Shown: positions 6,127 to 63,871 of the stretch, one piece after another
How the letters are laid out: the number at the start of each line of letters is the position of its first letter
Numbering within the stretch: position 1 is the first letter of the stretch
Source of the DNA: an uncultured Bacteroidota bacterium
GTDB taxonomy: Bacteria; Bacteroidota; Ignavibacteria; Ignavibacteriales; Ignavibacteriaceae
Reading direction: 5' to 3'
Assembly: GCA_963745465.1 (NCBI GenBank)
Contig: CAVUXT010000045.1
Coordinates: forward strand, 35,235 to 99,234
Length of the DNA stretch: 64,000 bases
Translations under genes and position numbers: made by a program
Notes under the pieces: generated by a model
The model's input: only the letters and a program-made list of their open reading frames with translations
Told to the model about the DNA's origin: nothing
The model's database searches: none

Positions 6127-6128
6127 AT

Positions 6129-6449: not shown

Positions 6450-6487
6450 TAAAAACCGCTGGTTGATATTCAATTGGGAGAACTCAA

Positions 6488-6946: not shown

Positions 6947-6965
6947 TAATAACAAGAGAGCAATC

Positions 6966-7374: not shown

Positions 7375-7377
7375 AGC

Positions 7378-13419: not shown

Positions 13420-13503
13420 GCGGAAGTGGTGAAATTGGTATACACGCTATCTTGAGGGGGTAGTGCCTTAATTGGCGTACGGGTTCAAGTCCCGTCTTCC
13501 GCA
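13420..13503 (+). tRNA. tRNA-Leu (anticodon GAG)
   Basis: Acceptor GCGGAAG/CTTCCGC, anticodon stem CTATC/GGTAG with loop TTGAGGG, a long variable arm, T-arm GGGTTCAAGTCCC and discriminator A. Confidence 0.9.
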
Positions 13504-13535
13504 CTTTTTCCAACCACAAATAAAGGAAGATACAA

Positions 13536-26020: not shown

Positions 26021-26096
26021 TGCCCCGTGGTGTAATTGGCAACACGTCTGACTCTGGATCAGAAGAGTTCAGGTTCGAGCCCTGACGGGGCAACCA
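26021..26096 (+). tRNA. tRNA-Gln (anticodon CUG), CCA encoded
   Basis: Acceptor TGCCCCG/CGGGGCA (U1-A72), anticodon stem TCTGA/TCAGA with loop CTCTGGA, T-arm TCAGGTTCGAGCCCTGA, then ACCA. Confidence 0.9.
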
Positions 26097-26179: not shown

Positions 26180-26253
26180 GGCGCGTTCGTCTAGTGGCTT
26201 AGGACGCCGCCCTCTCAAGGCGGAGATCACGGGTTCGAATCCCGTACGCGCTA
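26180..26253 (+). tRNA. tRNA-Glu (anticodon CUC)
   Basis: Acceptor GGCGCGT/ACGCGCT, D-arm GTCTAGTGGCTTAGGAC, anticodon stem CCGCC/GGCGG with loop CTCTCAA, T-arm ACGGGTTCGAATCCCGT. Confidence 0.9.
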
Positions 26254-26334
26254 CTAAATCCTGCCTATTATTTCGTCAAATTTTTATTATTTTAAAATTC
26301 TCTAATTATTCTTTTACTATTTCTTAATAATTAT

Positions 26335-32499: not shown

Positions 32500-32576
32500 T
32501 AATTTGGGACCTTATTCATTTTTTAGTGAAATGACTTAAAATTTATTTAAATTTAATATATCGGAGGATAAATAAT

Positions 32577-33728
32577 ATGAAAATAATCTTAAGGCTGATT
32601 CTTATCAGCGCGCTTTTTGGAGTTTTCCAGAAAGCTGCATTTGCCCAGGGTGGTGAATCAGCAGTGCCTTTCTTGTTGTTGGCGCCTGATTCCAGAGCTG
32701 GAGGTATAGGTGAATCAGGAGTTGGACTTGCCGACAATTCTGCTGCAATTTTTTGGAATCCTGCAGGAATTGCATTCCTTACTGGCGGAGAAGTTAGCAT
32801 TACGCACAGTAACTGGTTGCCGCAATTCAATTTGGATTTATTTTATGACTATTTTACTTACAGACAATATATTGAAAGCCTAAGTGGCAGTGTAACAGCT
32901 AGCGTTACATTTATGAATTATGGTGAATTTGTTCGAACTGGTCCCGATAATGATACACCATTGGGAGTTTTCAAATCTTATGATTTTGCAGCTACTGTAG
33001 GATATGCAACGAAGGTAAGTAATGACTGGGGTCTCGGCATGAATTTCAGATTAATTCATAGTAGGCTTTCAGATCAACCGACTGCTAACGAGCAGGGTAG
33101 CGGCGTTGCTACTTCCGTCAGTTTTGATATTGCAACTATGTGGCGTCCTTCAACTTTGGATATACCTATGTTGGGCGATTTGGGAAATAAATTTAGCTTC
33201 GGTGCAAATTTAAGCAACCTGGGTCCAAAGATATATTATATAGATCAGGCACAGGCAGATCCTATACCTACAAACTTAAGGTTTGGTTTTGCATATGAAA
33301 TATTAAAGGACGATTACAATTCTTTAATGTATACTTTTGATATCAGCAAACTTCTTGTTGATAAGAAGGATAGCACTACGTCTAAGGAATTTTACCAGGC
33401 TATTTTTACAGCCTGGGGTGCTCACCCGTTTTTTAGATCTATGGATTATTCAATGGGGGTTGAGTACTGGTATGGCCAACCAGGCGATTTTCTCTTTGCT
33501 TTAAGAACTGGATTTTTCTATGAAGATCCTGCATATGGCAACAGGAAGTTTGTCACTTTCGGTGCAGGAATAAGATATGATATTTATGGTTTTGATTTCA
33601 GTTATCTAACGACATCCATTTTCCCAAATGGGGCTAGTAATCCATTATCAGATACTCTCAGATTTAGCGTTTCTATTGGTTGGGGAGGCGCTGCTGATCA
33701 ATCAAGAGGGTTACCCAGAGGAATTTAA
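32577..33728 (+). CDS. porV: Type IX secretion system outer-membrane shuttle protein PorV (LptO)
   Basis: AVPFLLLAPDSRAGGIGESGVGLADNSAAIFWNPAGIAF is the characteristic PorV N-terminal motif. It is about 380 aa with FadL-like barrel composition and sits in the conserved position after porU. Confidence 0.85.
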   Translation: MKIILRLILISALFGVFQKAAFAQGGESAVPFLLLAPDSRAGGIGESGVGLADNSAAIFWNPAGIAFLTGGEVSITHSNWLPQFNLDLFYDYFTYRQYIESLSGSVTASVTFMNYGEFVRTGPDNDTPLGVFKSYDFAATVGYATKVSNDWGLGMNFRLIHSRLSDQPTANEQGSGVATSVSFDIATMWRPSTLDIPMLGDLGNKFSFGANLSNLGPKIYYIDQAQADPIPTNLRFGFAYEILKDDYNSLMYTFDISKLLVDKKDSTTSKEFYQAIFTAWGAHPFFRSMDYSMGVEYWYGQPGDFLFALRTGFFYEDPAYGNRKFVTFGAGIRYDIYGFDFSYLTTSIFPNGASNPLSDTLRFSVSIGWGGAADQSRGLPRGI

Positions 33729-33733
33729 GATTA

Positions 33734-36724
33734 ATGAAGTATTTTCTTGTTGTTCTTAATTTACTTTTTGTTTTGGGCAGTTCTTCTGCCCAAAATTTTA
33801 TACAGAAAGTGCGCCCTTTTTCTTCTACCGTTGTTTCCAGGTTATCAGCTCAGATTGACACTTTAAAAATTCTCGCGGTAATGGTGGAATTTCAGGCGGA
33901 CAAAGATGAAACCACTTTCGGTAATGGCAAATTTGGGACAATATACTCACAGGATTATGGACAAGGAATACTGGATCCATTACCGCATGACAAAGCCTAC
34001 TTTGAATCACATTTACTCTTTGCGAAAAATTATTTTAATAAGGTTTCGAATGGAAAGCTTGTAATTCAATATACAGTTCTTCCTGGAATTCTTACCGTAT
34101 CCAAAACAATGCGAAATTATTCTCCGCCAAGTAATTCTACTGATTATACTTTGCTTGCAAACTTTTGTAAAGAAGTTTGGCAATTGGCAGACTCAGCAAA
34201 CCCCGGTTTTAATTTTTCAAAGTTTAATGTTTTTACAATATTCCACGCCGGTGCGGGAAGAGATGTTGTTTTACCAGGAACTCTCGGAAATGAACATAAC
34301 ATTCCTTCACTTTATTTGAGTGATGAAGCCTTTAAGAATATTTACGGCAATTCATTCAGCGGATTTACGGTAAATAACAATTTTAACATAACTAATACGA
34401 TTGTTATGCCGGAGACTGAGAGCAGAGAAGTTTCAAATGGACTAACAACTTCATTCCTTCAGCTTACAATCAATGGTTTGATGGCGGCAAATATTGGAAG
34501 CGCAATTGGTTTGCCGGATTTATATAATACCAAAACAGGTGAAAGTGCTATCGGGCGTTTTGGTTTAATGGATGGACAATCATTCTTTGCATTTGGTGGA
34601 TTGTTTCCACCAGAGCCCACACCTTGGACAAAAATTTATATGGGATGGGCTGACCCGGTGACTGTTAGCCCGGGTAATTATAATGATATAAAATTATTTA
34701 CCAGACTAGCGGCTTCAGTATCCGATACTGTAATTCTTAAAATCCCGATTAACTCAAAAGAATATTTTCTTGTCGAAAACAGAAACCGTGATGTTCACAA
34801 AGATGGGGCAAAACTAACATACGTCTCAAATGGAATAACATTAAACAAAACATTTCCTGGAGATGAAGATAATTTTAATAATTATAATGTTAGTGCTATT
34901 AATGGAGTTGTTACAGACGTTGATGAATTTGATTATGCAGTACCCGGAAATGGAATTGTAATCTGGCATATAGATGAAAATGTAATTGACAATAACATTG
35001 CTACCAACTCAATAAATTCCGGAACAACGCGCGGAATTTTTGTAGAAGAAGCTGATGGAGTGCAGGATATCGGACAACAGTTTGCGGACATTTTCGGAGA
35101 TGTGATAGTAGGCGAAGGAACCCCCGAAGATTTTTGGTTCAAATCAAATCCTTCTCAGTTTTTTACAAATAAGTTCTCTAAAGACACAAGGCCAAACACA
35201 AATTCCAATACCGGAGCAAACAGTTTAATAACAGTTTCAGATTTTTCGGATACATCTATTGCTATGACATTTAATGTTGCCTTCGGCGATTCAATAATAA
35301 AACCAATCTTTGTAAAGAAACCATCCTTAAATTCATCAATAGATAGGTTAAGTTCATTAACATATTTGAATAGATTTGAATTGGGAACCTTGTCAAACTC
35401 GACCCTAAATATATTGGATAGTAACGGGAATGTGATTTATACACAAAACAATTTTTCATCATTCGAACCTGTATCGACAGCTTTGGGAAGTGGTTCCATT
35501 TACATAGGTGCATTTTCTTCATTCATAAATATTATTTATAGAGATTATATTACAAATCCTTTTTCAACACAAGTTTCAGTTTCTTCAGATATTACAGCAC
35601 CTTTAGTTTACTTTTTAGGATTGAATGGAGCCTATAGATTACTGATTGGTACTCAATCCGGGAAAATATATACTTATGATACTTCAGTTTCGCTGGCCGG
35701 CGTAACAGATAGTACTGTGGCAGCTCCCTCGGCTATTAAAAAGATAGCGGCTAATAATGATTATTATTCGGCTATCGCAGGCAATTATTTTTTTGATTCT
35801 AATGGTAAGAGTTTAAGCTTTGCAGACTCACTTCAAAATTTGATTCTAACGCAAAATTCATCAGGAGATTATTTATCTATTGTTGAAACAAAAAGCCAGA
35901 TTTCGGTTATCAAAAACGGGGTAATAATTTTTTCTCAATTGGTTGATGGAAACCCGGCTGAAAATAATTATGGTCTTGCTTTAGCTGATTTAAAACAGGA
36001 TGGTCAGAATTATATAATTTATAACAATGGACTCCAAATCAGGGCAATGAATATTAGCGGCGCTTCAGCTGATAATTTTTCATTTAGTGATCCGCTAAAT
36101 ATTGGATTTGTAGGTACTCCGGTTGCTCTTGATTTTGCCGGGGATTCAAAATCAGAAATAATTGCTGCAACAAAAGACGGAAGAATTTATGCAATCGATG
36201 GAGGCACAGGAAAGGTGGTCGATGGTTTCCCTTTAAAAGTCGGGACAGCTTTGAGCACGTCACCGGTTGTATTTGATAATAATGGGAAAGCTTCATTAGC
36301 AGTAGTATCAGATTCTAACACTGTCTCTTCCTGGATTATTGGTGCTGGTAGTGGAAAGTATTTTTGGGCCTCAGAAAACGGAGACAATTATAATTCATCC
36401 TTTGTAAAAGCTGCATCTCAGGTAAACTATGTTAGTGATTATTTCCCATCATCCCGGGCATATAACTATCCAAATCCTGTTTATGGAAATACAACCAATA
36501 TAAGATATTATGTTTCTCAGGATTCAAAAATCAATATTAAAATTTTTGATATTGCAGGCAGTTTTGTGGATGAACTAAACGATTTTGCCCATGGCGGTTT
36601 AGATCATGAAACAATTTGGAATGTGAGCAAAATCCAAAGTGGAATTTATCTCGCAAGAATCGAGGTCACGAGTGCAAGCGGACAAACAGAGAGTAAAATT
36701 ATTAAGATTGCTGTAGTGAAATAA
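33734..36724 (+). CDS. T9SS cargo protein: M6 (immune inhibitor A)-like metalloprotease domain lacking the HExxH zinc site, FG-GAP/beta-propeller-like repeats, T9SS C-terminal sorting domain
   Basis: M6-domain landmarks are ILAVMVEFQADKD, IFHAGAGRD and IGLPDLYNT. The expected HEFGH is AANIGS (34484-34501). The C-terminal CTD is YNYPNPVYGNTTNIRYYV...GIYLARIEV...IKIAVVK. Confidence 0.75.
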   Translation: MKYFLVVLNLLFVLGSSSAQNFIQKVRPFSSTVVSRLSAQIDTLKILAVMVEFQADKDETTFGNGKFGTIYSQDYGQGILDPLPHDKAYFESHLLFAKNYFNKVSNGKLVIQYTVLPGILTVSKTMRNYSPPSNSTDYTLLANFCKEVWQLADSANPGFNFSKFNVFTIFHAGAGRDVVLPGTLGNEHNIPSLYLSDEAFKNIYGNSFSGFTVNNNFNITNTIVMPETESREVSNGLTTSFLQLTINGLMAANIGSAIGLPDLYNTKTGESAIGRFGLMDGQSFFAFGGLFPPEPTPWTKIYMGWADPVTVSPGNYNDIKLFTRLAASVSDTVILKIPINSKEYFLVENRNRDVHKDGAKLTYVSNGITLNKTFPGDEDNFNNYNVSAINGVVTDVDEFDYAVPGNGIVIWHIDENVIDNNIATNSINSGTTRGIFVEEADGVQDIGQQFADIFGDVIVGEGTPEDFWFKSNPSQFFTNKFSKDTRPNTNSNTGANSLITVSDFSDTSIAMTFNVAFGDSIIKPIFVKKPSLNSSIDRLSSLTYLNRFELGTLSNSTLNILDSNGNVIYTQNNFSSFEPVSTALGSGSIYIGAFSSFINIIYRDYITNPFSTQVSVSSDITAPLVYFLGLNGAYRLLIGTQSGKIYTYDTSVSLAGVTDSTVAAPSAIKKIAANNDYYSAIAGNYFFDSNGKSLSFADSLQNLILTQNSSGDYLSIVETKSQISVIKNGVIIFSQLVDGNPAENNYGLALADLKQDGQNYIIYNNGLQIRAMNISGASADNFSFSDPLNIGFVGTPVALDFAGDSKSEIIAATKDGRIYAIDGGTGKVVDGFPLKVGTALSTSPVVFDNNGKASLAVVSDSNTVSSWIIGAGSGKYFWASENGDNYNSSFVKAASQVNYVSDYFPSSRAYNYPNPVYGNTTNIRYYVSQDSKINIKIFDIAGSFVDELNDFAHGGLDHETIWNVSKIQSGIYLARIEVTSASGQTESKIIKIAVVK

Positions 36725-47971: not shown

Positions 47972-48000
47972 TTGACATTTAAGTACCTATAAAGTATTTT
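47972..48000 (+). promoter_or_regulatory. Sigma-70-like promoter candidate for the BMC shell operon
   Basis: TTGACA (47972-47977), a 17-nt spacer and TATTTT (47995-48000). A GGAG RBS lies 7 nt before the ATG at 48035. Confidence 0.3.
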
Positions 48001-48034
48001 TCTAAAAGCAATTCAAATAAATTGGAGCATATCA

Positions 48035-48313
48035 ATGGCACTAGACGCACTAGGAATGATAGAAACAAAAGGCCTGGTCGGTTCGATCGAAGCAGCTGAT
48101 GCGATGGTAAAAGCAGCTAAAGTTGAACTACTGGGTAAAGAAACCATCGGTGGTGGTTATGTAACTGTTATGGTTCGTGGAGATGTAGGTGCTGTAAAAG
48201 CAGCAACTGATGCCGGTGCAGCAGCAGCTCAAAGAGTTGGTGAATTAGTGTCAGTTCACGTTATTCCCCGTCCACACGCTGAAGTTGAACAAATTCTTCC
48301 AAAAAGAAAATAA
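48035..48313 (+). CDS. Bacterial microcompartment shell protein, BMC-H (Pfam00936 single-domain hexamer type)
   Basis: [77 protein letters not shown] is near-canonical PduA/EutM/CcmK-like sequence. Confidence 0.9.
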
Positions 48314-48319
48314 TAGCTT

Positions 48320-48877
48320 ATGTCACAGGCGTTAGGACTAATCGAAACTAAGGGATTAGTGGCTGCCATAGAAGCAGCGGATGCGATGCTCAAGGCCGCT
48401 AATGTTACTTTTGCTGGGAAGACGGTTACGAATCCTGCATTGATAACAATTAAGGTTGTCGGAGAAACTGCTGCGGTTAAATCAGCAGTAGATGCAGGGG
48501 CAGCAGCAGCTGCGAGAATCGGCCAGGTAGTATCAACTCACATTATCCCTCAACCCGATGAGCAGCTTATTTCAATGCTCCCTGAAATAAAAGATTCAAA
48601 ACCAGAACCTGTACGACCCGGTAAAAAAGAAAAACAAATTAATGAAAATATCTTATCGGAGGAAGTAGAATCTTCCGAAACTATTTCAAGGTTGAAACAG
48701 GAAGCTCTCGGAAAAAAGGAAAAAGACGGAGCAGTAAACGATAATGATATTGAATCAATGAATGTTCATCAACTAAGGCATTTGGCAAGAAGCATCTCTG
48801 AATTTCCGATTAAAGGCAGAGAGATTTCGCGTGCAAACAGGGATGAATTGCTAAAGTATTTCAGAAATTTAGGTTAA
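48320..48877 (+). CDS. BMC-H shell protein paralogue with ~100-aa C-terminal extension ending in a HeH/Rho_N-like helix-extension-helix motif
   Basis: N-terminal ALGLIETKGLVAAIEAADAMLKAANVTFAGKTVTNPALITIKVVGETAAVKSAVDAGAAAAARIGQVVSTHIIPQP. This is followed by a Lys/Glu/Pro-rich linker and MNVHQLRHLARSISEFPIKGREISRANRDELLKYF. Confidence 0.85.
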   Translation: MSQALGLIETKGLVAAIEAADAMLKAANVTFAGKTVTNPALITIKVVGETAAVKSAVDAGAAAAARIGQVVSTHIIPQPDEQLISMLPEIKDSKPEPVRPGKKEKQINENILSEEVESSETISRLKQEALGKKEKDGAVNDNDIESMNVHQLRHLARSISEFPIKGREISRANRDELLKYFRNLG

Positions 48878-48902
48878 AAGCAAAAAAAATTTAAATTAAA
48901 TA

Positions 48903-48929
48903 AAACTCCACATATAGTGGAGTTTTTTT
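48903..48929 (+). terminator. Rho-independent terminator after the BMC shell operon
   Basis: AAACTCCAC-ATATA-GTGGAGTTT is a perfect 9-bp stem followed by a T-run. Confidence 0.7.
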
Positions 48930-48957: not shown

Positions 48958-49872
48958 ATGAAGAACAACCTGCACATAATAATAATATCATTTCTTTTTT
49001 CCGTAATTCTATGGATTTCTATTTCGCTTTCAAACGATTATTATTCAACTTTTAGTATTCCATTAAAGTTGGTTGATTTCCAGCAGGGTTTGACCAGCGG
49101 ATCCAGGATCCCGAGGAAAATATCCGTAAAGGTAAAGGGAAAAGGCTGGAAATTAATCTCAGCAAGCATTGGCGCTGAACCAGATTTTGTAGTTTCTGCG
49201 ATCGGCGATACGGGCAAAAAATATATAAATCTTTATAATTACCTTAGCGAAAACCAGTGGCTCTCTTCAGACCTTGAGGTAATTGATATTAACCCTGATA
49301 CTTTAACTTTGAACATTGAAAAAGTCTCCAGTAAAAAACTAAAAATAGACCCTGACATTGATCTTAATTTCAGGGAAGGCTATGGAATTGCTTCACAAAT
49401 TTCTGTAATTCCCGATTCAGTTGTCGTTTACGGCCCATTGAGCGATTTAAAAAAAATGAATTCCATTCCGACTGAAAAAATCAGCCTCAATGATTTAAGT
49501 GATAAATTTGCAACAAGGGTTAATTTAAAAAATCTTCCGGGAATGTCATACGAAGAGAACAACGCATTTATATCCATTGACATTCAAAGAATTGTTGATA
49601 GAAATATTGACGGAATTAATGTTGCGGTAATGGAAGTGCCTAAAGACAGGGAAGTTGTTTTGCTGCCAAATAAAATCTCAATTAATGTTAAAGGAGGGAT
49701 CGATATTTTAGGCAAATTGACGACTGATCAATTTAAAGCTTATGTAAATTACAGGGATGTTGTGATGGATACACTGGGAGGTGTTATTCCGAAGATTGAA
49801 TCACCTGCTGATGTTACAATTCAATATATTAAACCTGATTTGCTCAGGTATGTAATTAAAAAATTTAATTAA
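48958..49872 (+). CDS. YbbR-like domain protein (CdaR-like)
   Basis: N-terminal TM helix followed by repeated beta-rich ~80-aa modules (V.V.G...L..I....I.), typical of YbbR repeats. Confidence 0.6.
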   Translation: MKNNLHIIIISFLFSVILWISISLSNDYYSTFSIPLKLVDFQQGLTSGSRIPRKISVKVKGKGWKLISASIGAEPDFVVSAIGDTGKKYINLYNYLSENQWLSSDLEVIDINPDTLTLNIEKVSSKKLKIDPDIDLNFREGYGIASQISVIPDSVVVYGPLSDLKKMNSIPTEKISLNDLSDKFATRVNLKNLPGMSYEENNAFISIDIQRIVDRNIDGINVAVMEVPKDREVVLLPNKISINVKGGIDILGKLTTDQFKAYVNYRDVVMDTLGGVIPKIESPADVTIQYIKPDLLRYVIKKFN

Positions 49873-54348: not shown

Positions 54349-55784
54349 ATGAACACCGCGATCAAAGAGAAAATTAAAACAATAACCGGCTCAAAAAATT
54401 TTTTCGATTCGGAAGAAGACAGGCTGTGTTATTCTTTCGATGCAACTCCTTTATTAAAGCAATTACCCGAAGCAGTTGTCTTTCCTGAAAATGAAGAACA
54501 GATATCTAAAATTTTAAAACTGGCCAACCAGGAATCTTTAACGTTGTGCCCAGAGGAGCGGGCACAGGCTTAAGCGGCGGCGCAATTCCGGTTGAGAACT
54601 GCGTTGTGCTGGTAATGACAAAGTGGAATAAAATTCTTGAGATAGACAACAGCAATTTAACTGCAACTGTTCAGCCGGGAGTTGTAACCGGGCATTTACA
54701 AAATGAAGTGGAAAAACTCGGACTCTTTTATCCACCTGATCCGGGGAGTATGAGCGTATGTACAATTGGCGGCAACGTTGCAAACAATGCCGGCGGACTT
54801 CGCGGATTAAAATACGGAGTAACAAAAAATTATGTGCTCGGCACAGAAATGATTCTACCAAACGGTGACCTGTTAAAAACCGGCGGCAAGAATATGAAAG
54901 ACACGGCAGGGTATAACCTCAGGGATTTTATTGTCGGAAGCGAAGGCACGCTTGGCATCATCACTAAAATATTGCTTAAACTTATTCCCAAACCAACTGA
55001 ATCAATTACAATTCTTGCTTACTTCGATAAGCTTTCATTTTCGGCAAAAGCCGTTTCTGATATTATCGCTTCACACATAACCCCTTCAATGATGGAATTT
55101 CTTGATAACACTACGATCAATTGTGTTGAAGATTACACGAAGGTCGGACTTCCGCGAAACAGTGAAGCTATCTTATTAATAGAGGTTGACGGAAGGGGAA
55201 GTATTGTTTACGAAGATGCTGAAACAATAAAAAATATTCTGAAAAAAAATAATGCTTCGATGGTAAAAACGGCTTCGGATATAAGTGAGGCATTAACTTT
55301 AAAATCAGCGCGAAGAAGTGCGTTCAGCGCGCTTGCGAGAGTTCGTCCAACCACGATACTGGAAGATGCAACAGTACCGAGAAGCGAACTTCCTGTAATG
55401 ATTGAAAAAGTAACCGAAGCTGGAAAGAAATTCGATGTAACTTTCGGAAATTTCGGCCACGCAGGAGACGGCAATCTTCATCCAACCTGCCTGACTGACG
55501 AAAGAGATGCTTACGAAATTGACCGCGCGCATAAAGCTTTCGATTTTATTTTTAACGAAGCTATAAAACTCGGCGGAACAATTACAGGCGAACACGGAAC
55601 AGGACTTGCGAAAAAACAATTCCTTGAGAAAGTTGCAGGAATCCCAGGAGTTGAAATGATGAAAAAAATAAAATCAGCAATTGATGAAAATAATATTCTG
55701 AACCCCGGAAAAATATTTTCAATCTCGCCCCGTTGCGAAAGTCCCTTGCCTTACCACAGAGAACAAATCTCAAATTATAAATGA
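54349..55784 (+). pseudogene. glcD: FAD-linked oxidase, glycolate oxidase subunit GlcD / D-lactate dehydrogenase-like; frameshift near 54535 as sequenced
   Basis: ORFs 54349-54573 and 54546-55784 join as ...KLANQE/(I)FNVVPRGAGTGLSGGAIP, the FAD-binding PCMH motif. The C-terminus has GEHGTGLAKKQFL...ILNPGKIF. Confidence 0.85.
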
Positions 55785-57098
55785 ATCCGGACTTCATAAA
55801 AAATATTCCCGCAGATATTCTTCCATCCGATGATGTTTTATCCCAATGCATTCACTGCGGAATGTGCCTGTCTGTTTGTCCCACTTACGAACTTACAAAA
55901 AATGAAAGATCTTCTCCGCGGGGAAGAATAAAAATGATAAAGTCTGTTACGAAAGGCGAGTTGGCTATCTCGAATTTATTTGCTGATGAAATGAACTTTT
56001 GTCTGGATTGCCAGGCTTGCGAAACTGCTTGTCCTGCAGGAGTTAAGTATGGCAAACTTGTTGAATCTGCAAGAGTGATCGTCGATGAGAGTTTCATAAA
56101 TTTTTCATTAAAAATTCGGATTAAAAGATTTCTGCTTAGAAAAATAATCGGAGATAAACATAACCTAAAAATTGCCGCAAAGATACTAAGGTTTTATCAA
56201 AGATCATTTTTAAAAAACTTATTTGAAAAGTCTGGTATCCTGAAATTGTTTTTAAAAATCCTTCCTGAAATTTCAAAATTAGTCTCCGAAGATTTCCAAG
56301 TTTTTCAGCGATGAAAGAATACCTGCGAATGTAAAACCTGAAACTGAAGCAAAATACAAAACCGCATTTCATTTTGGATGCATAATGAATGTTGCTTTTG
56401 CTGACATAAACCTGGATACTGTTGATGTTCTCAAAGCATTTTCGTGTGAAGTTTTCACTCCGCGAAACCAGGATTGCTGCGGGTCACTGCATGCACATAA
56501 CGGTGATATGGAATTCGCAAAAGACTTAGCCCGCAAAAATATCGATGCTTTCGGGAAAACGCATTTTGATTTTTTAATTTCTAACTCTGCTGGATGCGGA
56601 GCGTTTATGAAAGAATACGGTTTTGTCCTGAAGGATGATCCGGAATATTCTGAAAAAGCAAAGAATTTTTCGGACAAAGTAAAGGATATTTCGGAGTTTT
56701 TATTTGATAAAACACCAGCTTTAAAAATCGGCAGCTTAAATATCCGTGCAACCTATCACGATGCATGTCATTTAGCACATTCTCAAAAAATTAAGATTGA
56801 GCCCAGGGAACTATTAAAATCCATTCCCGGTTTAGATTTAGTAGAAATGAAAGCTTCTGATGCCTGCTGTGGAAGCGCAGGAATTTATAATGTATTAAGG
56901 CACAATGACTCATTGCATTTCCTGGAAAATAAAATCTTAAGTGCAAAGGAAACCAGGGTTCCGATTTTGATCACAGGAAATCCGGGCTGTATATCACAGC
57001 TTGTATACGGAGCTGATAAATATAAATGCGATATTAAAATAATGCATCCTGTTACGCTTATTAAAGAAGCCATGTATAAAGATATTTCTCAAAAGTGA
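55781..57098 (+). pseudogene. glcF: (Fe-S)-binding oxidoreductase, GlcF-like (two 4Fe-4S motifs plus two CCG domains); frameshift near 56280 as sequenced
   Basis: CIHCGMCLSVCP and CLDCQACETACP in ORF 55781-56314. The second frame is open from 56283 (…IPANVKPETEAKYKTAFHFGCIMNV…) and carries CCG motifs QDCCGS and DACCGSAG. Confidence 0.8.
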
Positions 57099-57430
57099 AA
57101 AATTTAAGCTGATATAAAATGGAAATTTCTGTTAAAAAATTCTACAACAATGGCTTGACCGAAGAGTTCAAAAAAATAAAAAATAGCATTAAATTTTCTT
57201 TTGTTATTCTTTGTTTTAATAATGTAATTCTTTAGTTTTGACAACTAAGATTTGTTAAATTTTTTAATATTTAATTAATCAATTGCGGGCTCAGCCTTAT
57301 AGCCGCATCAAATTTATTCATAACAATACCACAATTAGTTTTAGACGATATTTTGATTTTCTGGCATATTTTTATTGTTGTTATGAACAAGTTTTCTTCT
57401 AAAAATATTGCTTGTAACTCTAATAGGTAA

Positions 57431-58003
57431 ATGATGAAAAAATCTTTTTTGGATTATGTACTGAGAGTCCGGGTACCCATAACTATTTTTGTCATATTAG
57501 CTTCATTTACACTTACTTACTTTGCTTCGCGTGCCGAAAGAGACGGTGTAGGATACACTCCTGTTCAGCCGATAAATTTTTCCCATAAACTTCACGCAGG
57601 TTTAATGAAAATCGATTGCCAGTATTGTCACACGGGAGTTGAAAAATCCCGTCACGCAATGGTGCCCGCTGTATCAACCTGCATGAACTGCCACACTATC
57701 GCTAAGAAAGATTCACCTGAAATTATAAAACTAACTAAATATTACAACGAGGGAATAGCTCTTCCCTGGAAGAGAATTCACAGGGTACCTGAATTTGCTT
57801 ACTTCAATCATAGTGTGCACGTTAATTCAGGGATAGATTGTTCGAGCTGTCACGGTGATGTAAGAAATATGGACCATATTGGACAGATGAATTCCTTTAC
57901 TATGGGAGCCTGTCTGGACTGTCACAGGAATGCAAAAGAAAGATTGCCTTATTTAAAGAACATAAAAAACGGACCAGATGATTGCTGGGCATGTCACCGA
58001 TAA
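57431..58003 (+). CDS. actA: Alternative complex III subunit ActA, pentaheme cytochrome c
   Basis: N-terminal TM helix and five CxxCH motifs (CQYCH, CMNCH, CSSCH, CLDCH, CWACH). It is the first gene of the act operon. Confidence 0.9.
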   Translation: MMKKSFLDYVLRVRVPITIFVILASFTLTYFASRAERDGVGYTPVQPINFSHKLHAGLMKIDCQYCHTGVEKSRHAMVPAVSTCMNCHTIAKKDSPEIIKLTKYYNEGIALPWKRIHRVPEFAYFNHSVHVNSGIDCSSCHGDVRNMDHIGQMNSFTMGACLDCHRNAKERLPYLKNIKNGPDDCWACHR

Positions 58004-58015
58004 CCCGGAGTTAAA

Positions 58016-58237
58016 ATGGAGTTAAAAAACATAAATTTGAATAAAAAGATTAAGAGAAAAAATTTCTTTATTAGTCTGGGCGCGGGCGTTGCAGGTTATT
58101 TTGCTCTCAGGTCGGTTCCATTTAAATTATTTTTTAAGAAAAACGATTCAGCTAAAGCAGAAGATAAAAACGGCAGAAGAGTGAAGATTAATCCACTTGC
58201 CGTAAGCAGAAAAAATATAGGTGGTAATAATGTCTGA
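58016..58237 (+). CDS. Small hypothetical protein with Tat-like/TM N-region between actA and actB
   Basis: A GGAG RBS lies 8 nt before the ATG. The sequence KRKNFFISLGAGVAGYFALRSV has a hydrophobic helix. The stop TGA (58235-58237) overlaps the actB ATG at 58230 (ATGTCTGA). Confidence 0.5.
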   Translation: MELKNINLNKKIKRKNFFISLGAGVAGYFALRSVPFKLFFKKNDSAKAEDKNGRRVKINPLAVSRKNIGGNNV

Positions 58238-61200
58238 AGTTAAGGACGGACTAAACAACGAGGAAGTTCCACAGGAAAAGGATCAGAATTACTGGCGCAG
58301 TTTTGCGGAGTTGCACAAAGATCCAGCTTTAATTGAAGCCAGCCATCATGAGTTTCAGGAAGGCGCTACAGATGAATTTGATCCGTCTAAATTATCAAAA
58401 GTTTCAAGACGTAAATTTCTGGCACTTGTCGGCGCATCTGCAGCATTGGCAGGCGCCGGTTGTTCGAATTACCGTGATAAAGGAGAAATAATTCCTTACA
58501 CTAAGATGCCGGAGGATACTGTTGTCGGCAAGCCGAAATATTATGCTTCTACATTAAATTATGGATCTTTGTCTCAGGGAATTTTAATAAAGACCAGAGA
58601 AGGAAGGCCGATTAAGGTTGATGGTAATCCGGACCACCCGGTAAGCAAAGGAAAAATAAATGCCATAGGTCAGGCTAGCATACTGAATTTGTATGATCCT
58701 GACAGGTTGCAGAATCCAATGAAGAAAGCAAGAAGCGGTGAATTTTTGAAATCAACCTGGCAGCAGGTAGATTCGGAAATTGTAGGCGCTTTAACTTCAA
58801 ATGCGGGGAAAAGCATTGCTATCGTAACCGGAAAAATACTTTCGCCTACTACAAAAAAAGTTCTTGATGATTTTGCCTCAAAATATTCCGGCACAAAAAT
58901 TTATTCGTATGAATTATTTAACGATGAAAACAGGAATTCCGCATGGAAGAAATGTTACGGAACAGATTCATATCCGCTTGTAAAATGGAATGAAGCTAAG
59001 GTTATAGTTGCGCTGGAATCCGACTTCCTTGGAAACGATGGAAACAAAGTTGAAAACTCCAGGCTGTTTACGGAAGGAAGAGATGTTAATGATGCTAAAA
59101 ACTTTAACAGACTTTATGTAGTTGAAGGGAATATGTCGCAGACAGGAATGAACGCAGACTACAGGCTAAAGCTAAGACCTGATGCCCAGAACGAATTTGT
59201 AATGAGCCTTTTGAAAGAAGTAGCAAGAAGAACAGGAACCGAACTTTCTGTTAATCTTTCAGATTATTCACTTGATAATTTTTCCAAAACTTACTCGCTT
59301 AATACTAAAAAATTAAAATATCTTGTCGATGACCTTATCAATAATAAAGGCAATGCGATAGTTTATGGCGGCAGAACTTTATCTGAGGCAACTCACATTG
59401 CAGTTAATCTTATAAATGAAATTTTAGGCAACGCGAAATTATACAGAACTGATTCTGCAGTATATTCTTTGCAACCATTGAGCACAAAGGAAGAGCTGGA
59501 ATCGCTTGTCTCTGATATGAATTCAGGTAAAGTCGGCGTTGTAATTCATTTTGATTCAGATCCTGTTTATTTATTACCAAATGATTTAGGATATGCAGAA
59601 GCTTTAAAGAATGTTCCTACAATAGTATCATTGACTGAAAGCGATAATGATTCATCATCCGCTGGTAATTATACATTGCCAATCAATCATCCTTTTGAAT
59701 CCTGGGGTGATGCAAAAGCAAGAACAGGATTTTCATCACTTCAACAGCCTGTTATTTCTGCAATTTATAATACGAGGCAAAAAGAAGCCGTACTTCTTAA
59801 CTGGATAAACGGAGCCAATGGAAAATTTAGTGATACTATGTATCACGAATATCTTATGAAGAATTGGGAGGCAAATATTTATCCTGCATTAAAATCAAAA
59901 TTAAGTTTTAAAGAATTTTGGTATGGGGCATTGCAGGATGGAGTTGTTTTAACAATTGATTCTCCAAAGAGTTTCGGTAAGTTTAATTCATCAGCATTAA
60001 ATGATCTTAATAAATCAATAAACAAGCTATCAGGCTATGCAATTATTTTAAGTGAAAGCTATTCTCTTGGTGATGGCAAATTCTTAAATAACGGATGGCT
60101 TCAGGAGCTTCCACATCCCGTAAGCAAAATGACCTGGGATAATTATGCGGCTATTTCACAGAATACTGCAAAAGAATTGGGTTTAAAAAATAATGACAAG
60201 ATTTCTGTTACAGTAGGTAAAAGAACACTGGAAATACCGGTTCTGATTCAGCCGGGATGCGCGGATAATACAATTGCAATTGAAACCGGCTGGGGAAGAA
60301 CAGTTGTTGGTGAAGTAGGTAAAGGTACAGGTTTTAATGCAAATATTTTATTGTCAAAAGACTCTACTGGTTCATCCTGGATGTTTACTTCCAGTGATAT
60401 TAAAAAAGGCAACGGTTCATATAAATTAGTTTCTGCCCAGGAACATCATTTGTTTGATACATTCACCTGACGAAAATTTACTTGGCGAAAGACATATAAT
60501 TAAGGAAGGAACAGTAAAGGAATATTTAAAAAATCCGAAATTCATTTCTGAAATGCATGAAGAAGAACGCGTTGACGAAATTTACCCGAAACATCCTGAT
60601 TGGTTTACAGGTGTTAAATGGGCAATGTCAATCGACCTGAATAAATGCACAGGCTGCAGTGATTGTGTTGTTGCCTGCGTTGCGGAAAATAATATTCCGG
60701 TTGTTGGTAAGGATCAGGTTGCAGTCGGTAGAGAAATGCAATGGCTCAGAATTGATGCATATTATTCTGGTTCGGAAGACGATCCGATAGTAAGTACTCA
60801 GCCTATGTTATGCCAGCAATGTGATAATGCACCTTGCGAAAATGTTTGTCCGGTTGCTGCTACTACTCACAGTAAAGACGGACTGAACCAGATGGTTTAT
60901 AACCGTTGTGTAGGAACAAGATATTGTTCGAACAACTGTCCTTATAAAGTTCGAAGATTTAACTTCTTTAATTTCAGGGATCATTTCAGAGATGGATTCC
61001 AACAGAAAGAATTATTAGATCTTGTTTACAATCCTGAAGTAACCGTAAGATCCAGAGGAGTAATGGAAAAATGTACTTTCTGTATCCAGAGAATTGCTAC
61101 TGAACGTGAAAATGCTATTCGGGAAAACAGGAACATTATTGGATCAAATGTTCATACTGCCTGCCAGGATGCATGCAATACTAATGCAATTAATTTTGGT

Positions 61201-61338
61201 GATATGAATGACAAGAACAGCGAATTTTATAAATACAGAAATCATGAATTAGGTTATTACGTTCTCGAAAATTTGAATGTAAGACCAAATGTTACCTATC
61301 TCGCTAAATTAAGAAATACCCATTCGGAGGAAGCATAG
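58221..61338 (+). pseudogene. actB: Alternative complex III subunit ActB (molybdopterin-oxidoreductase-like B1 plus 4-cluster Fe-S B2 module); frameshift near 60460 as sequenced
   Basis: Tat signal SRRKFLALVGASAALAGAGC. ORFs 58221-60470 and 60454-61338 join as ...QEHHLFDT/SPDENLLGERHIIKEG. B2 has CTGCSDCVVAC, CQQCDNAPCENVCP, CVGTRYCSNNCPYKVRRFN and CTFCIQR. Confidence 0.9.
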
Positions 61339-62715
61339 TGAGTTTAGATTATAGTAAAGAATTAACTCTGGTACAGGGCAACCTGACAATGGCAGATCTA
61401 GATAATGCCATTGCAAAACCTATGGATACAAAGCCCGGTAAAAAATATTTTATTGCCCTGTTATTTACAACATCACTCTTGCTGCTTGGTGTTTTAGGGG
61501 TATCTCTTACTTTCTTTTACGGCATTGGAGAGTGGGGAAATAATCAACCGGTTGCGTGGGGCTTGGGGTATTACAAATTTCGTTTTTTGGGTTGGTATTG
61601 CGCACGCAGGTACATTGATTTCTGCAATTCTTTATTTGTTAAGACAAAAATGGAGAACCGGCATTTCGAGATTTGCTGAGGCAATGACGATCTTTGCTGT
61701 AATTTGTGCCGGAATATTTCCAATAATTCATACCGGTCGTCCCTGGCTTGCAGGTTATTTGATACCGTATCCGAACTCGCATCACTTATGGCCGAATTTT
61801 ATTTCGCCGCTGGTATGGGATGTGTTTGCCGTTTCGACATATTTTATAGTTTCACTGATGTTCTGGTATGTTGGTCTGATTCCAGATTTTGCAACTTTAA
61901 GGGACAGGGCCAGTTCCAAAATTAAAAAAACTATTTATTCATTATTTAGTCTTGGCTGGAAACATTCAAACAGGGACTGGAGACATTACGAAAAAGTTTA
62001 TATGATTCTTGCTGGCCTAGCCACACCTCTTGTACTTTCTGTTCACTCTGTTGTGAGCTTTGACTTTGCCGTTGCAGTATTGCCGGGATGGCATTCAACA
62101 ATATTTCCTCCTTACTTTGTTGCCGGAGCTATCTTTTCAGGATTTGCAATGGTGGTTACTGCTCTGCTGTTTGTGAGAAAAGTATTCGATCTTGAAAATG
62201 TAATTACTATGGATCACCTTGAAAGAATGAATAAGATCATTCTTCTTACAGGCTCTATGGTTGGTTATGCTTATCTAATGGAATTTTTCATTTCGTGGTA
62301 CAGCGGCGTGCCGACAGAACAATATGCTGCCATCAACCGGGCTTTCGGTGATTATGCCTGGGGTTACTGGATTATGGTTGCCTGTAACTCGCTTTTCCCT
62401 CAATTATTCTGGTTCAAGAAATTCAGAAGATCGATCCCTGTTATGTTTATTGTTGTAATATTAGTGAATGTAGGTATGTGGTTTGAAAGATTTATAATTA
62501 TTGCTTCCTCTCTGCAAAGAGATTTTCTGCCCTCAAGCTGGGGTTATTTCACTCCAACCTGGGTTGATTTCTCAATCTTAATTGGAAGCTTTGGATTATT
62601 CTTTACACTCGTGCTTTTGTTTGCGAGAACATTGCCTGTTGTTACTATGTCAGAAATTAAAGGAGTTGTTGAAGGTGCACAGCCCTCGCACCATGGAGGC
62701 GATCATAATGGCTAA
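61338..62715 (+). pseudogene. actC: Alternative complex III subunit ActC (NrfD/PsrC-like quinol-interacting membrane subunit); frameshift in the G-rich tract 61557-61568 as sequenced
   Basis: ORFs 61338-61679 and 61525-62715 join as ...[33 protein letters not shown]. There are about 10 TM helices. Confidence 0.9.
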
Positions 62716-63871
62716 TAAAAAACTACATTCTTTAGCGGCTCTGTTTAATACTCCGGATGAAATATTAAATGCCGCGAAGAAAACTACTGAAGCTGGTTAT
62801 AAAAAGTTTGATGTAAATACTCCATACCCGATGCATGGAATGGATCGTGCAATGGGAATGGGCCAGTCCAAAATTGGTTTTGTAACATTATTCTTTGGTT
62901 TGTCAGGTGCAACTTTTATTTTCTTGTTTATGTGGTGGTCATATGCGGTCAGCTATAATATCGTTGTTGGAGGAAAACCATTCTTTTCAATTCCAGCTTT
63001 TATTCCTATTACTTTTGAAACAACTGTATTGTTTGCTGCTATCTCAACTGTATTGGGAATGATTGCCGTTTATTTTAAGCTACCCAATAATGCACATCCG
63101 TTACACGATACAGATTATATGAAAGCAGTTTCCGGAGATAAATACGGATTGGTAATTGAAGCGGATGATGAAAAATTTGATAAAGCTGAAGTGGCTGAAT
63201 TTTTAAAAAAACTTGGTGCTTATAAAATTGAAAGTGTATTCTTTCCTGAAGAAGAGAAATACAGAATGTTTGCACCAAAATTTCTTTTATTTCTTGCGGT
63301 TGTAGCGATTGTCACTTCAGGCGCAACCTATGTAACTTTAAATAAATTAATGTACATAACTCCTTTTGACTGGATGGATGTACAAAGCAAATTAGCTGCC
63401 CAGGAAAAAAGCGATATCTTTGCTAACGGAGAAGGTATGCGTCCTCCTGTTGAAGGTACAGTAGCCAGAGGATATTTACCTTATCCATATGAAGGAGAAA
63501 CTAATCCGACCCTGGTGCTAACAAACCCGACAATCCCTACTAAGCAGATTTTGGATCTCGGGAAAAGAAAATTTTTAACTTTTTGCAGCCCATGCCATGG
63601 AAATTATGCAGACGGGAACAGCAGGTTGCAGGGGCAGTTCCCTAATGGTCCAACTTTGCATTCGGATAAAATCATAAATTATCCTGATGGAATGATCTAT
63701 CATATAATTACGAATGGCCAGAATGCTATGCCTTCTTATGCAAGACAAATTACGAGAAACGAAAGATGGGCTATTGTTGATTACATCAGAGTATTACAGA
63801 GAGCACAAAATGCAAAAGAATCTGATTTAGAATCAGTAAATAAGGAGTCTGTTTCAAATGTCCAAAATTGA
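62708..63871 (+). CDS. actD: ActD (DUF3341 membrane subunit) fused in frame to ActE (monoheme cytochrome c)
   Basis: The ATG at 62708 overlaps the actC stop (ATGGCTAA). The N-half [38 protein letters not shown] plus 2 TM helices is ActD-like. The C-half [13 protein letters not shown]...CSPCHG...MPSYA is ActE-like. No stop codon separates them. Confidence 0.8.

What the first reader, a model, noticed from the sequence alone, without database searches (positions are those of the whole stretch)
47972..48929. Orphan two-gene BMC shell-protein operon with no cargo, pentamer or trimer genes in the window
Two Pfam00936-type BMC-H genes (48035-48313 and 48320-48877) lie 6 nt apart. They are bracketed by a TTGACA/17 nt/TATTTT promoter-like element and a perfect 9-bp stem plus T-run terminator, so they look like an autonomous bicistronic unit. 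The neighbours are pure housekeeping genes: relA/spoT and ruvX upstream, and a YbbR-like gene, tmk and an S41 peptidase downstream. Nowhere in the 64 kb did I see a BMC-P (EutN/CcmL) vertex protein, a tandem BMC-T, an aldehyde dehydrogenase, a phosphotransacylase, RuBisCO/carbonic anhydrase, a glycyl-radical enzyme or any other signature BMC enzyme. Characterised BMC loci normally co-encode shell and cargo. Hexamers alone form sheets or tubes rather than closed icosahedral shells. The second paralogue also replaces the usual pore loop (K-x-IGGGY in gene 1) with KTVTNPAL, which suggests a different or occluded pore. Together this points to a BMC-fold protein pair used for something other than a classical metabolosome (scaffold, sheet or tube), or to a satellite shell locus whose main locus lies elsewhere.
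Basis: partly seen in the sequence, partly recalled or inferred. Interest (0 to 1): 0.8.

Follow-up and report, generated by a model that had tools for sequence, protein, structure and literature searches.

The report
Fragmented microcompartment shell-gene pair (FRAG1)
These two genes are real microcompartment shell proteins, and they match the "FRAG1" scattered shell-gene type already catalogued in Ignavibacteria in 2021, so the locus is a known but still unexplained kind rather than a new one.

Summary
ORFs 48035-48313 (92 aa) and 48320-48877 (185 aa) are both PF00936 BMC-H proteins. They have their own TTGACA-17-TATTTT promoter-like site and a hairpin/T-run terminator, and both signals are conserved in related genomes. 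The 64 kb window holds no pentamer, tandem BMC-T, AldDH, PTAC, PduS or glycyl-radical enzyme.

The pair matches "FRAG1" (Sutter et al. 2021), a shell-only, scattered BMC type prominent in Ignavibacteria. [quoted passage not shown] Gene 1 is 72% identical to the Haliangium shell hexamer. Gene 2 has a changed pore loop and edge motif, a disordered tail, and a 43-aa basic helical end domain found mostly (perhaps only) on BMC-H proteins.

The same extended hexamer sits inside glycyl-radical metabolosome loci in Firmicutes. In Gemmatimonadaceae it lies directly before AldDH-PTAC. This argues for a metabolosome shell origin.

I could not test for pentamers in this genome, because only 64 kb of it is available here. 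Verdict: already known as a kind, function still unknown, modest interest.

The parts
47972..48000 (+). Sigma-70-type promoter-like site: -35 TTGACA (47972-47977), 17-nt spacer, -10 TATTTT (47995-48000)
   Evidence: Consensus scan, 10 of 12 matches. Both hexamers and their spacing are conserved in 13 Ignavibacteria loci, including three where the upstream gene is not ruvX (MAFFT). Transcription start not shown.
48024..48027 (+). GGAG Shine-Dalgarno-like box 8 nt before the gene 1 start codon
   Evidence: Read from the sequence. The (G)GGAGCA block is conserved in the upstream alignment of 13 loci.
48035..48313 (+). Gene 1: standard ('basal') BMC-H hexamer, 92 aa. It has the KAAK and PRPH edge motifs and a GGG pore loop.
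   Evidence: PF00936 E 4e-30. NCBIfam EutM 137.4 bits, above the 133 cut-off. 63/87 = 72% identical to the H. ochraceum shell BMC-H (6NER/5DJB). The exact sequence occurs on many Ignavibacteriaceae contigs, and its 90% cluster has 1459 members.
48320..48589 (+). Gene 2, BMC domain (aa 1-90). The KAAN motif is kept. PRPH is replaced by PQPD, and the pore loop is TNPA instead of GGG.
   Evidence: PF00936 E 7.7e-24. AF2 pLDDT 85-96 with a BMC-like beta-alpha pattern. Motifs and invariant columns K25, N28, Q78, P79, D80 come from a 45-sequence alignment. 53% identical to gene 1.
48590..48673 (+). Gene 2, linker 1 (aa 91-118): charged, variable in length, predicted disordered
   Evidence: pLDDT below 50 for residues 95-118. 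Length varies from about 10 to more than 300 residues across homologues.
48674..48712 (+). Gene 2, conserved short amphipathic helix (aa 119-131; family consensus DTISRLRxEALG)
   Evidence: Invariant T121, L125, E128, A129. Helix 120-129 in the AF2 model. The likeness to an encapsulation peptide is my inference only.
48713..48745 (+). Gene 2, linker 2 (aa 132-142): variable, predicted disordered
   Evidence: pLDDT below 50 for residues 131-138. Variable in the alignment.
48746..48877 (+). Gene 2, C-terminal 43-aa helical domain (aa 143-185, net charge +2, 16 invariant residues including R153, R157, R167), plus the stop codon
   Evidence: pLDDT 83-91. The profile finds 571 clusters at E <= 1e-3 among 1.84 billion representatives. 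In the 150 listed it is at the C-terminal end in nearly all; 108 of the 144 new ones carry an N-terminal BMC domain and most of the rest are short, fragment-like sequences. Weak, convergent likeness to SAP/Rho_N helix-extended-helix domains.
48902..48929 (+). Intrinsic-terminator-like hairpin (AAAACTCCAC-ATATA-GTGGAGTTTT) followed by more T
   Evidence: -13.3 kcal/mol, z = -4.2. Reported by the terminator scan. An ACTCCAC...GTGGAG+T-run hairpin is conserved downstream of gene 2 in about 8 of 14 relatives.

Best explanation
This is the conserved two-hexamer operon of a FRAG1-type ('fragmented') bacterial microcompartment in an Ignavibacteriaceae genome.

Shown:
- Both genes encode BMC-H proteins.
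- They form a unit with its own conserved promoter-like site and terminator-like hairpin.
- The unit sits in a housekeeping block (der-upp-relA-ruvX | pair | ybbR-tmk-S41) that is conserved across Ignavibacteria.

Inferred:
- Gene 1 makes the bulk facet hexamer.
- Gene 2 makes a specialised, probably minor hexamer with a different pore lining (TNPA in place of GGG) and a changed edge motif (PQPD in place of PRPH).
- The long disordered tail of gene 2 leaves the concave face. That face points to the cytosol in solved shells (my recollection of Sutter et al. 2017). The tail would therefore present a small basic helical domain on the outside of the shell.
- I think this domain most likely binds nucleic acid or a positioning partner, as proposed for EutK.
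- The vertex pentamers (a BMC-P triplet), and in some genomes a PduS/PduT pair, are supplied from other places in the genome.
- The cargo is unknown. Because the same extended hexamer is followed by AldDH-PTAC in glycyl-radical loci of Firmicutes and in Gemmatimonadaceae, an aldehyde-oxidising metabolosome core is the best guess.
- Placement behind a dedicated promoter among housekeeping genes suggests expression that does not depend on a substrate-induced catabolic operon.
For: Published description: the FRAG1 text matches point for point. It is a shell-only type, most prominent in Ignavibacteria. [quoted passage not shown]

Taxon: gene 1 is named in an Ignavibacteriaceae MAG. The full-length gene-2 relatives that carry a source name are all from Ignavibacteria.

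Co-occurrence with pentamers: gene-2 homologue P0036 is A2057_00090 of Ignavibacteria bacterium GWA2_35_9. The same genome carries the FRAG1 BMC-P A2057_13845 in Sutter's tree. The cultured ignavibacterium Melioribacter roseus has 7 BMC-P genes in 5 loci, 4 of them satellite or satellite-like (PMC4207490). Melioribacteraceae MAGs carry the pair (L011, L015).

Conserved arrangement: short BMC-H plus extended BMC-H are adjacent in 25 loci of Ignavibacteria, Rhodothermales, Cytophagia, Chlorobi and Gemmatimonadaceae. None of these has a BMC-P within 10 kb, whereas 57 of 58 other loci (mostly Firmicutes) do. Synteny is shown. Promoter and terminator conservation is shown.

Shell character: gene 1 is 72% identical to the Haliangium shell hexamer.

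Link to metabolosomes: the C-terminal domain profile also hits BMC-H proteins in five Firmicute glycyl-radical loci with the order EutQ-Hext-AldDH-PTAC-BMC-H, alongside GRE, activase and BMC-P, and PduS/PduT in two of the five. It also hits Gemmatimonadaceae loci with BMC-H, Hext, AldDH, PTAC.

Domain architecture.
Against: No pentamer, PduS/T or enzyme gene of this genome was seen. Only 64 kb of a 397,290-bp contig was available, and three attempts to reach Ignavibacteria BMC-P genes failed. The 'shell closed by pentamers encoded elsewhere' step therefore rests on the literature and on other genomes.

FRAG1 has never been studied experimentally. Sutter et al. found neither enzymes nor encapsulation peptides in FRAG genomes, so an assembled organelle is itself an assumption.

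The fold and ligand of the C-terminal domain are unresolved. Every match to SAP or Rho_N is non-significant (E 0.018 to 9), and hhalign against the E. coli Rho N-terminus found nothing.

The outward orientation of the tail is taken from other shells, not tested here.
Confidence: 0.7

Rival explanations
1. Hexamer-only assembly. In this lineage the two BMC-H proteins work without pentamers or cargo. They would form sheets, tubes or a scaffold, perhaps tethered to nucleic acid or to the neighbouring membrane-anchored YbbR-like protein.
For: No BMC-P or enzyme lies within 64 kb of the pair here, or within 10 kb in 25 related loci. The pair sits in a housekeeping block with its own promoter and terminator. 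A YbbR-like gene directly follows it in Ignavibacteria and in Rhodothermales. FRAG genomes gave no enzyme or encapsulation-peptide hits in the published survey. The tail ends in a basic domain with weak SAP/Rho_N likeness.
Against: The published FRAG1 type includes a BMC-P triplet in the same genomes, and one genome with a gene-2 orthologue is shown to have one. M. roseus has 7 BMC-P genes. Gene 1 is a near-standard shell hexamer. The same extended hexamer is a component of canonical metabolosome loci.
Confidence: 0.12
2. Ordinary satellite. The genome has a complete main BMC locus with enzymes, for example the MIC4 or PVM-like type known from Melioribacter roseus. These two genes would simply add hexamers to it.
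For: M. roseus carries both a MIC4 main locus and FRAG1 satellites ('2loci_inTaxon'; PVM-like locus). Satellite loci that tune shell permeability are known.
Against: The pair is conserved at one syntenic place across many Ignavibacteria genomes, regardless of any main locus. It defines its own catalogued type. FRAG1 is described as shell-only in 57 genomes. No main locus was seen here, but the genome could not be searched.
Confidence: 0.15
3. Decaying remnant. The pair would be left over from a lost metabolosome operon and no longer functional.
For: The AldDH-PTAC genes that follow the extended hexamer in Gemmatimonadaceae and Firmicutes are missing here. One assembly (L098) has the gene-2 orthologue split into two ORFs.
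Against: Both ORFs are intact. The gene 1 protein is identical on dozens of contigs. The gene-2 family has 53 invariant columns over 45 sequences that go down to 56% identity. The C-terminal domain is conserved in 571 clusters. Promoter and terminator are conserved.
Confidence: 0.03

Closest known systems
FRAG1 fragmented BMC type (Sutter, Melnicki, Schulz, Woyke, Kerfeld 2021, Nat Commun 12:3809)
   Same: [quoted passage not shown] Shell genes lie away from any enzyme gene. Function is unknown.
   Different: Nothing tested here differs. The BMC-P triplet and the optional PduS/T pair of the type could not be looked for in this genome. The conserved ruvX | pair | ybbR synteny, the dedicated promoter and terminator, and the sharing of the C-terminal domain with glycyl-radical loci do not appear in the parts of the paper I read.
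Haliangium ochraceum (HO) shell hexamer, PDB 5DJB/5V74/6NER
   Same: Gene 1 is 72% identical over 87 residues and shares the KAAK, GGGY and PRPH motifs. In Sutter's tree the FRAG1 Ignavibacteria BMC-P falls in the same 'viridian' clade as the HO pentamers.
   Different: HO loci are compact (BMC-Tdp, BMC-H, BMC-P, AldDH, BMC-T). Here there is no adjacent pentamer, trimer or AldDH, and there is a second, extended hexamer.
EutK (BMC-H with a C-terminal nucleic-acid-binding helix-turn-helix domain)
   Same: Same idea: a BMC-H domain followed by a small ordered C-terminal domain thought to face the cytosol. Sutter et al. call the FRAG1 domain 'analogous to EutK'.
   Different: Not homologous beyond the BMC domain. 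The NCBIfam EutK profile aligns only residues 1-100 and scores 86 bits against a cut-off of 218. Here a long disordered linker with a conserved helix separates the two domains.
Extended BMC-H of glycyl-radical (GRM) metabolosome loci in Firmicutes (Desulfosporosinus, Clostridium, Lacrimispora)
   Same: Full-length homologues (35-42% identity) with the same C-terminal domain (profile E 5e-13 to 7.5e-6).
   Different: These sit in complete loci: GRE, activase, PduV, EutJ, BMC-P, PduS (in two of the five), EutQ, Hext, AldDH, PTAC, BMC-H. The window pair has none of these neighbours.
Cyanobacterial CcmK3/K4 satellite loci
   Same: Two adjacent BMC-H paralogues are encoded away from the other shell genes and regulated separately.
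   Different: Those serve a known main locus (the beta-carboxysome) and have no extension domain.

Membership tests
FRAG1 BMC type (Sutter 2021) | [quoted passage not shown] | tested here: met
   Gene 1 has KAAK and PRPH. Gene 2 is 185 aa, with a 95-aa extension whose last 43 aa are predicted ordered (pLDDT 83-91) and are highly conserved.
FRAG1 BMC type (Sutter 2021) | Taxonomic range: mainly Ignavibacteria, also Kryptonia, Bacteroidetes, Chlorobi, Rhodothermaeota | tested here: met
   Gene 1 is named in an Ignavibacteriaceae MAG. Full-length gene-2 relatives occur in Ignavibacteria, Melioribacteraceae, Rhodothermales, Cytophagia and Chlorobiales, and also in Gemmatimonadaceae.
FRAG1 BMC type (Sutter 2021) | Shell genes not clustered with enzymes (shell-only, fragmented organisation) | tested here: met
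   No AldDH, PTAC, PduS, GRE or other BMC enzyme in 64 kb. The same holds within 10 kb in the related Ignavibacteria loci.
FRAG1 BMC type (Sutter 2021) | BMC-P triplet (green/grey/orange clades) elsewhere in the same genome | not testable with these tools
   None in the window (best HMM E 4.4). A search seeded with the HO BMC-P returned only HO-type loci. A degenerate DNA scan returned SPU-type loci. Indirect support comes from GWA2_35_9 and M. roseus.
FRAG1 BMC type (Sutter 2021) | PduS/PduT pair (present in 24 of 57 loci, so optional) | not testable with these tools
   Absent from the window: phmmer with Pfam-checked PduS/PduT seeds gives only cross-hits to the BMC domain. The rest of the genome was not seen.
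BMC-H (PF00936 hexamer) | Single, non-permuted PF00936 domain with the conserved edge lysine | tested here: met
   Full-length Pfam matches 1-75/75 in both proteins. K in KAAK/KAAN is invariant in the gene-2 family. The AF2 BMC domain has pLDDT 85-96. Closest solved structures are all BMC-H.
BMC-H (PF00936 hexamer) | Forms hexamers that tile into facets | not testable with these tools
   Only monomer models were made. For gene 1 this is inferred from 72% identity to the HO hexamer. For gene 2 it is uncertain, because PRPH is replaced by PQPD.
Satellite locus (Axen 2014 definition) | Insufficient shell complement (only PF00936), with shell genes contiguous | tested here: met
   Two adjacent PF00936 genes and no PF03319 in the window.
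Satellite locus (Axen 2014 definition) | At least one non-satellite BMC locus elsewhere in the genome | not testable with these tools
EutK | Match to the whole EutK profile, including its C-terminal helix-turn-helix domain | tested here: not met
   NCBIfam PRK15466 scores 86.1 bits against a cut-off of 218. The alignment covers profile positions 1-100 of 166 only.
SAP / Rho_N / helix-extended-helix domains | Significant sequence or fold match of the C-terminal 43 aa | tested here: inconclusive
   Pfam Rho_N matches 2 of 25 family members, best E 0.018. The profile against PDB gives the SIZ1 SAP domain at E 0.9. Foldseek against BFVD has 6 Rho_N and 2 SAP proteins in the top 40, with rmsd about 2 A over 42-47 columns but E 0.4-3. 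Foldseek against PDB has nothing below E 3. hhalign against the E. coli Rho N-terminus gives probability 0.2%.

The most novel reading that the evidence does not exclude
In Ignavibacteria the FRAG1 hexamer pair is expressed constitutively. It would build a cargo-less or non-metabolic protein shell or sheet that is tethered to DNA or RNA through the SAP-like C-terminal domain of gene 2. That would make it a nucleic-acid-associated BMC-fold structure rather than a catabolic organelle, possibly working with the adjacent membrane-anchored YbbR-like protein.
Probability: 0.1. Interest if true: 0.8.

Novelty: already known. Interest (0 to 1): 0.3.

Why it matters
FRAG-type microcompartments are catalogued but unexplained. 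Nobody knows their cargo, whether they close into shells, or why their genes are scattered. This locus adds no new kind.

The comparison made here does give testable leads:
- The pair is an autonomous operon, fixed in a housekeeping block across Ignavibacteria, which fits expression independent of a substrate operon.
- Its extended hexamer carries a 43-aa end domain found mostly, perhaps only, on BMC-H proteins and shared with glycyl-radical metabolosome shells.
- In two other lineages that hexamer is immediately followed by AldDH and PTAC, which points to an aldehyde-oxidising ancestry.

If the end domain proves to bind nucleic acid on the outside of the shell, it would bear on how microcompartments are positioned and inherited.

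Tried and rejected
1. Reaching the rest of the genome. An exact-protein look-up of gene 2 read only a 4-kb Logan contig, not the 397-kb contig. The YbbR-like protein is not on record. A look-up of gene 1 gave ten places with the same synteny and no pentamer.

- A search seeded with the H. ochraceum BMC-P returned 120 hits, all at least 73% identical. The four whose gene contexts I looked up were HO-type.
- A degenerate, AT-biased DNA pattern for the GSSARQT...PVDATIMAIVD motifs found two JGI contigs. The longer one, the only one whose neighbours I annotated, is a low-GC SPU-type locus (PduS-PduT-H-H-DeoC-P-RpiB-P-P-Pta), not FRAG1.
- I left the third homologue search unused, because without an Ignavibacteria seed the top-120 limit makes success unlikely.

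3. Naming the C-terminal domain. Single-sequence Pfam, profile against PDB, Foldseek against PDB and hhalign against the Rho N-terminus gave nothing significant. Only weak, convergent SAP/Rho_N hints remain.

4. Considered and rejected.
- EutK orthology: the profile covers only the BMC domain.
- BMC-T: each protein has one domain.
- Carboxysome CsoS1/CcmO: scores are far below the cut-offs.
- Chance ORFs: the Pfam E-values and family conservation rule this out.

5. The supplementary trees of Sutter 2021 are truncated in the held copy. I therefore could not confirm that the gene-1 and gene-2 orthologues themselves carry the FRAG1 label in the BMC-H tree.
Full report
**Observation**

The window carries two forward-strand ORFs at 48035-48313 (92 aa) and 48320-48877 (185 aa), 6 nt apart.
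- Both match Pfam PF00936 over the whole 75-position model (E 4e-30 and 7.7e-24).
- Gene 1 also passes the NCBIfam EutM cut-off (137.4 vs 133 bits). Gene 2 reaches no equivalog cut-off.
- Upstream lie relA/spoT and ruvX (PF03652). Downstream lie a YbbR-like membrane protein, tmk and an S41 peptidase.

The promoter-like site TTGACA-17-TATTTT at 47972-48000 is present. On its own it is weak evidence in 35% GC DNA, where 14 sites were found against 7.3 +/- 2.5 in shuffles. An alignment of the 120 nt upstream of gene 1 from 13 Ignavibacteria loci shows both hexamers, their spacing and a GGAG box conserved. This holds even in three loci where the upstream gene is not ruvX.

The hairpin at 48902-48926 folds at -13.3 kcal/mol (z = -4.2). 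The same ACTCCAC...GTGGAG+T-run element follows gene 2 in about 8 of 14 relatives.

**Absence of other BMC genes**

I built a BMC-P HMM from sequences checked against PDB entries (EutN 2HD3, HO BMC-P 5V74, three CcmL), later enlarged to 72 sequences.
- It found nothing in the window (best E 4.4).
- It found nothing in 25 loci of Ignavibacteria, Rhodothermales, Cytophagia, Chlorobi and Gemmatimonadaceae.
- Only two BMC domains exist in the window.

Pfam scans of the window ORFs show housekeeping and respiratory genes only. These include cinA, recA, recX, murB, a pterin/phenylalanine hydroxylase cluster, an ECF sigma factor, TolQ/R, type IX secretion PorU/PorV, glycolate-oxidase-like genes and alternative complex III. 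The 38-45 kb stretch was read from the annotated relative L002. Pfam-checked AldDH, PTAC, PduS, PduT, GRE and EutQ seeds also found nothing in the window.

**What it is**

Sutter et al. 2021 (PMC8217296) define 'FRAG' microcompartments as shell genes scattered over up to six genomic places and remote from enzymes, found in Ignavibacteriae among others. Their Supplementary Data 2 describes FRAG1 (57 loci) as follows:
- It is a shell-protein-only type, most prominent in Ignavibacteria.
- It has a BMC-P triplet.
- A PduS/T pair is present in 24 of the 57 loci.

This is the window pair. Gene 1 is annotated in an Ignavibacteriaceae MAG. The full-length gene-2 relatives that carry a source name are all from Ignavibacteria.

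One of those relatives, P0036, is A2057_00090 of Ignavibacteria bacterium GWA2_35_9. The BMC-P A2057_13845 of that genome is labelled FRAG1 in the published pentamer tree. Axen et al. 2014 (PMC4207490) report that Melioribacter roseus has seven BMC-P genes in five loci, four of them satellite or satellite-like. Melioribacteraceae MAGs carry the pair.

**Anatomy**

Gene 1 is 63/87 (72%) identical to the H. ochraceum shell hexamer. It shares the KAAK, GGGY and PRPH motifs. Its 90% cluster holds 1459 members across phyla. It is a 'basal' facet hexamer.

Gene 2 is 53% identical to gene 1 in the BMC domain.
- It keeps KAAN.
- It has PQPD instead of PRPH, and TNPA instead of the GGG pore loop. Both changes are conserved in its family.

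Its AlphaFold model has these parts:
- a confident BMC domain (residues 1-90)
- a disordered stretch (95-118)
- a short helix (120-129) over the conserved motif DTISRLRxEALG
- a second disordered stretch (131-138)
- a confident helical end domain (141-184, pLDDT 83-91)

A profile of the last 43 residues finds 571 clusters at E <= 1e-3 among 1.84 billion representatives. In the 150 best hits the match lies at the C-terminal end in nearly all. Of the 144 new proteins among them, 108 carry an N-terminal BMC domain, and most of the remainder are short, fragment-like sequences. I did not inspect hits below the top 150. Linkers range from about 10 to more than 300 residues.

The domain's fold is unresolved.
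- Pfam Rho_N: E 0.018 in 2 of 25 members.
- SIZ1 SAP domain: E 0.9.
- Foldseek against viral models: six Rho_N and two SAP proteins in the top 40 (rmsd about 2 A, E 0.4-3). This points to a helix-extended-helix fold.
- Foldseek against PDB and hhalign against E. coli Rho gave nothing.
- It is not homologous to the EutK C-terminal domain by the NCBIfam profile.

**Comparative context**

Within Ignavibacteria the order der-pyr_redox-upp-TPR-relA-ruvX | BMC-H, BMC-Hext | ybbR-tmk-S41 is kept in more than a dozen species-level genomes, and in all ten places that carry the identical gene 1. A YbbR-like gene also directly follows the pair in two Rhodothermales genomes. In Chlorobi and Cytophagia the neighbours differ.

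Two observations tie the pair to metabolosomes.
- In Gemmatimonadaceae (L022, L024) the pair is followed at once by an aldehyde dehydrogenase (PF00171) and a PduL-type phosphotransacylase (PF06130).
- Five Firmicute loci (Desulfosporosinus, Clostridium, Lacrimispora) hold a full-length gene-2 homologue with the same end domain, in the fixed order EutQ-Hext-AldDH-PTAC-BMC-H. These are complete glycyl-radical loci with GRE, activase, PduV, EutJ and BMC-P, and with PduS/PduT in two of the five.

The extended hexamer is therefore a regular shell component that elsewhere sits directly before AldDH and PTAC. In Ignavibacteria it has lost that neighbourhood.

**Mechanism (inferred)**

- Gene 1 supplies facet hexamers.
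- Gene 2 supplies a specialised hexamer with a different pore and edge.
- The termini of BMC-H lie on the concave face (PMC5534457). That face points outward in the solved Haliangium shell (my recollection of Sutter et al. 2017, Science 356:1293; not checked here).
- The tail would therefore carry the basic end domain into the cytosol. I think it most likely binds nucleic acid or a positioning partner.
- The conserved amphipathic helix resembles an encapsulation peptide in size and pattern, but I have no test for that.
- Pentamers are expected from other loci.
- Cargo is unknown. An AldDH/PTAC core is the best guess from the comparative data.

**What could not be done**

I could not search the rest of this genome.
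- Look-ups by exact protein gave only the same 20-kb neighbourhood.
- A homologue search seeded with the Haliangium pentamer was saturated by high-identity hits; the four contexts I checked were HO-type loci.
- A degenerate DNA scan of metagenomes returned two low-GC contigs; the one I annotated is an SPU-type locus.
- The FRAG1 pentamers fall in the same 'viridian' clade as the HO pentamers, but I obtained no Ignavibacteria sequence to use as a seed.

**Verdict**

The feature is real and the description accurate. It is a member of a catalogued type (FRAG1), so it is already known as a kind. Its function remains open. The most novel reading, a pentamer-less, nucleic-acid-tethered BMC-fold assembly, is not excluded, but I put it at about 10%.

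Noticed in passing
window 48958-49872; L016 10823-11833; L020 3346-4326: A membrane-anchored YbbR-like gene directly follows the BMC-H pair in Ignavibacteria. It also does so in two Rhodothermales genomes whose other neighbours differ. This could be ancient synteny or a functional link.
   Followed up: partly
L022 4447-7827; L024 9989-13368: In Gemmatimonadaceae the same BMC-H / extended BMC-H pair is followed immediately by an aldehyde dehydrogenase and a PduL-type PTAC. The PTAC carries an N-terminal extension of about 130 aa, which might hold an encapsulation signal.
   Followed up: partly
L026 783-13147 (also L018, L027, L028, L037): Firmicute glycyl-radical microcompartment loci contain a gene-2 homologue with the same 43-aa end domain, always in the order EutQ-Hext-AldDH-PTAC-BMC-H.
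   Followed up: partly
window 4620-9367: A cluster of phenylalanine-hydroxylase-like (PF00351), two peroxiredoxins, rhodanese, 6-pyruvoyl-tetrahydropterin synthase, GTP cyclohydrolase I and two short-chain dehydrogenases. It looks like a tetrahydropterin synthesis and use module.
   Followed up: no
window 19905-21839: A 644-aa protein with an N-terminal HU-type DNA-binding domain (PF00216) and a C-terminal SPOR peptidoglycan-binding domain, which is an unusual combination. It lies before the tolQ/tolR-like genes.
   Followed up: no
window 29316-36724: A type IX secretion block: a PorU-like C25 peptidase, a FlgD_ig protein, PorV and a 996-aa protein with a Por_Secre_tail sorting domain. This fits an Ignavibacteria/FCB-group origin.
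   Followed up: no
window 54546-63871: Glycolate-oxidase-like FAD/Fe-S/CCG genes are followed by an alternative complex III operon (multihaem cytochrome, molybdopterin-like, Fe-S, NrfD-like and ActD subunits). The same order follows S41 in relatives L095, L099 and L100.
   Followed up: no
L098 10286-10835: In one ENA assembly the gene-2 orthologue is called as two ORFs (96 and 93 aa). This is a frameshift, caused either by an assembly error or by a pseudogene.
   Followed up: no
L092 8684-13525 (JGI Ga0255336_101256): A low-GC (34%) SPU-type microcompartment locus: PduS, PduT, two BMC-H, DeoC aldolase, BMC-P, RpiB, two more BMC-P, Pta. It was found by the degenerate pentamer DNA pattern.
   Followed up: partly
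window 13420-13504, 26021-26096, 26180-26254: Three tRNA genes: Leu-GAG, Gln-CTG and Glu-CTC.
   Followed up: no
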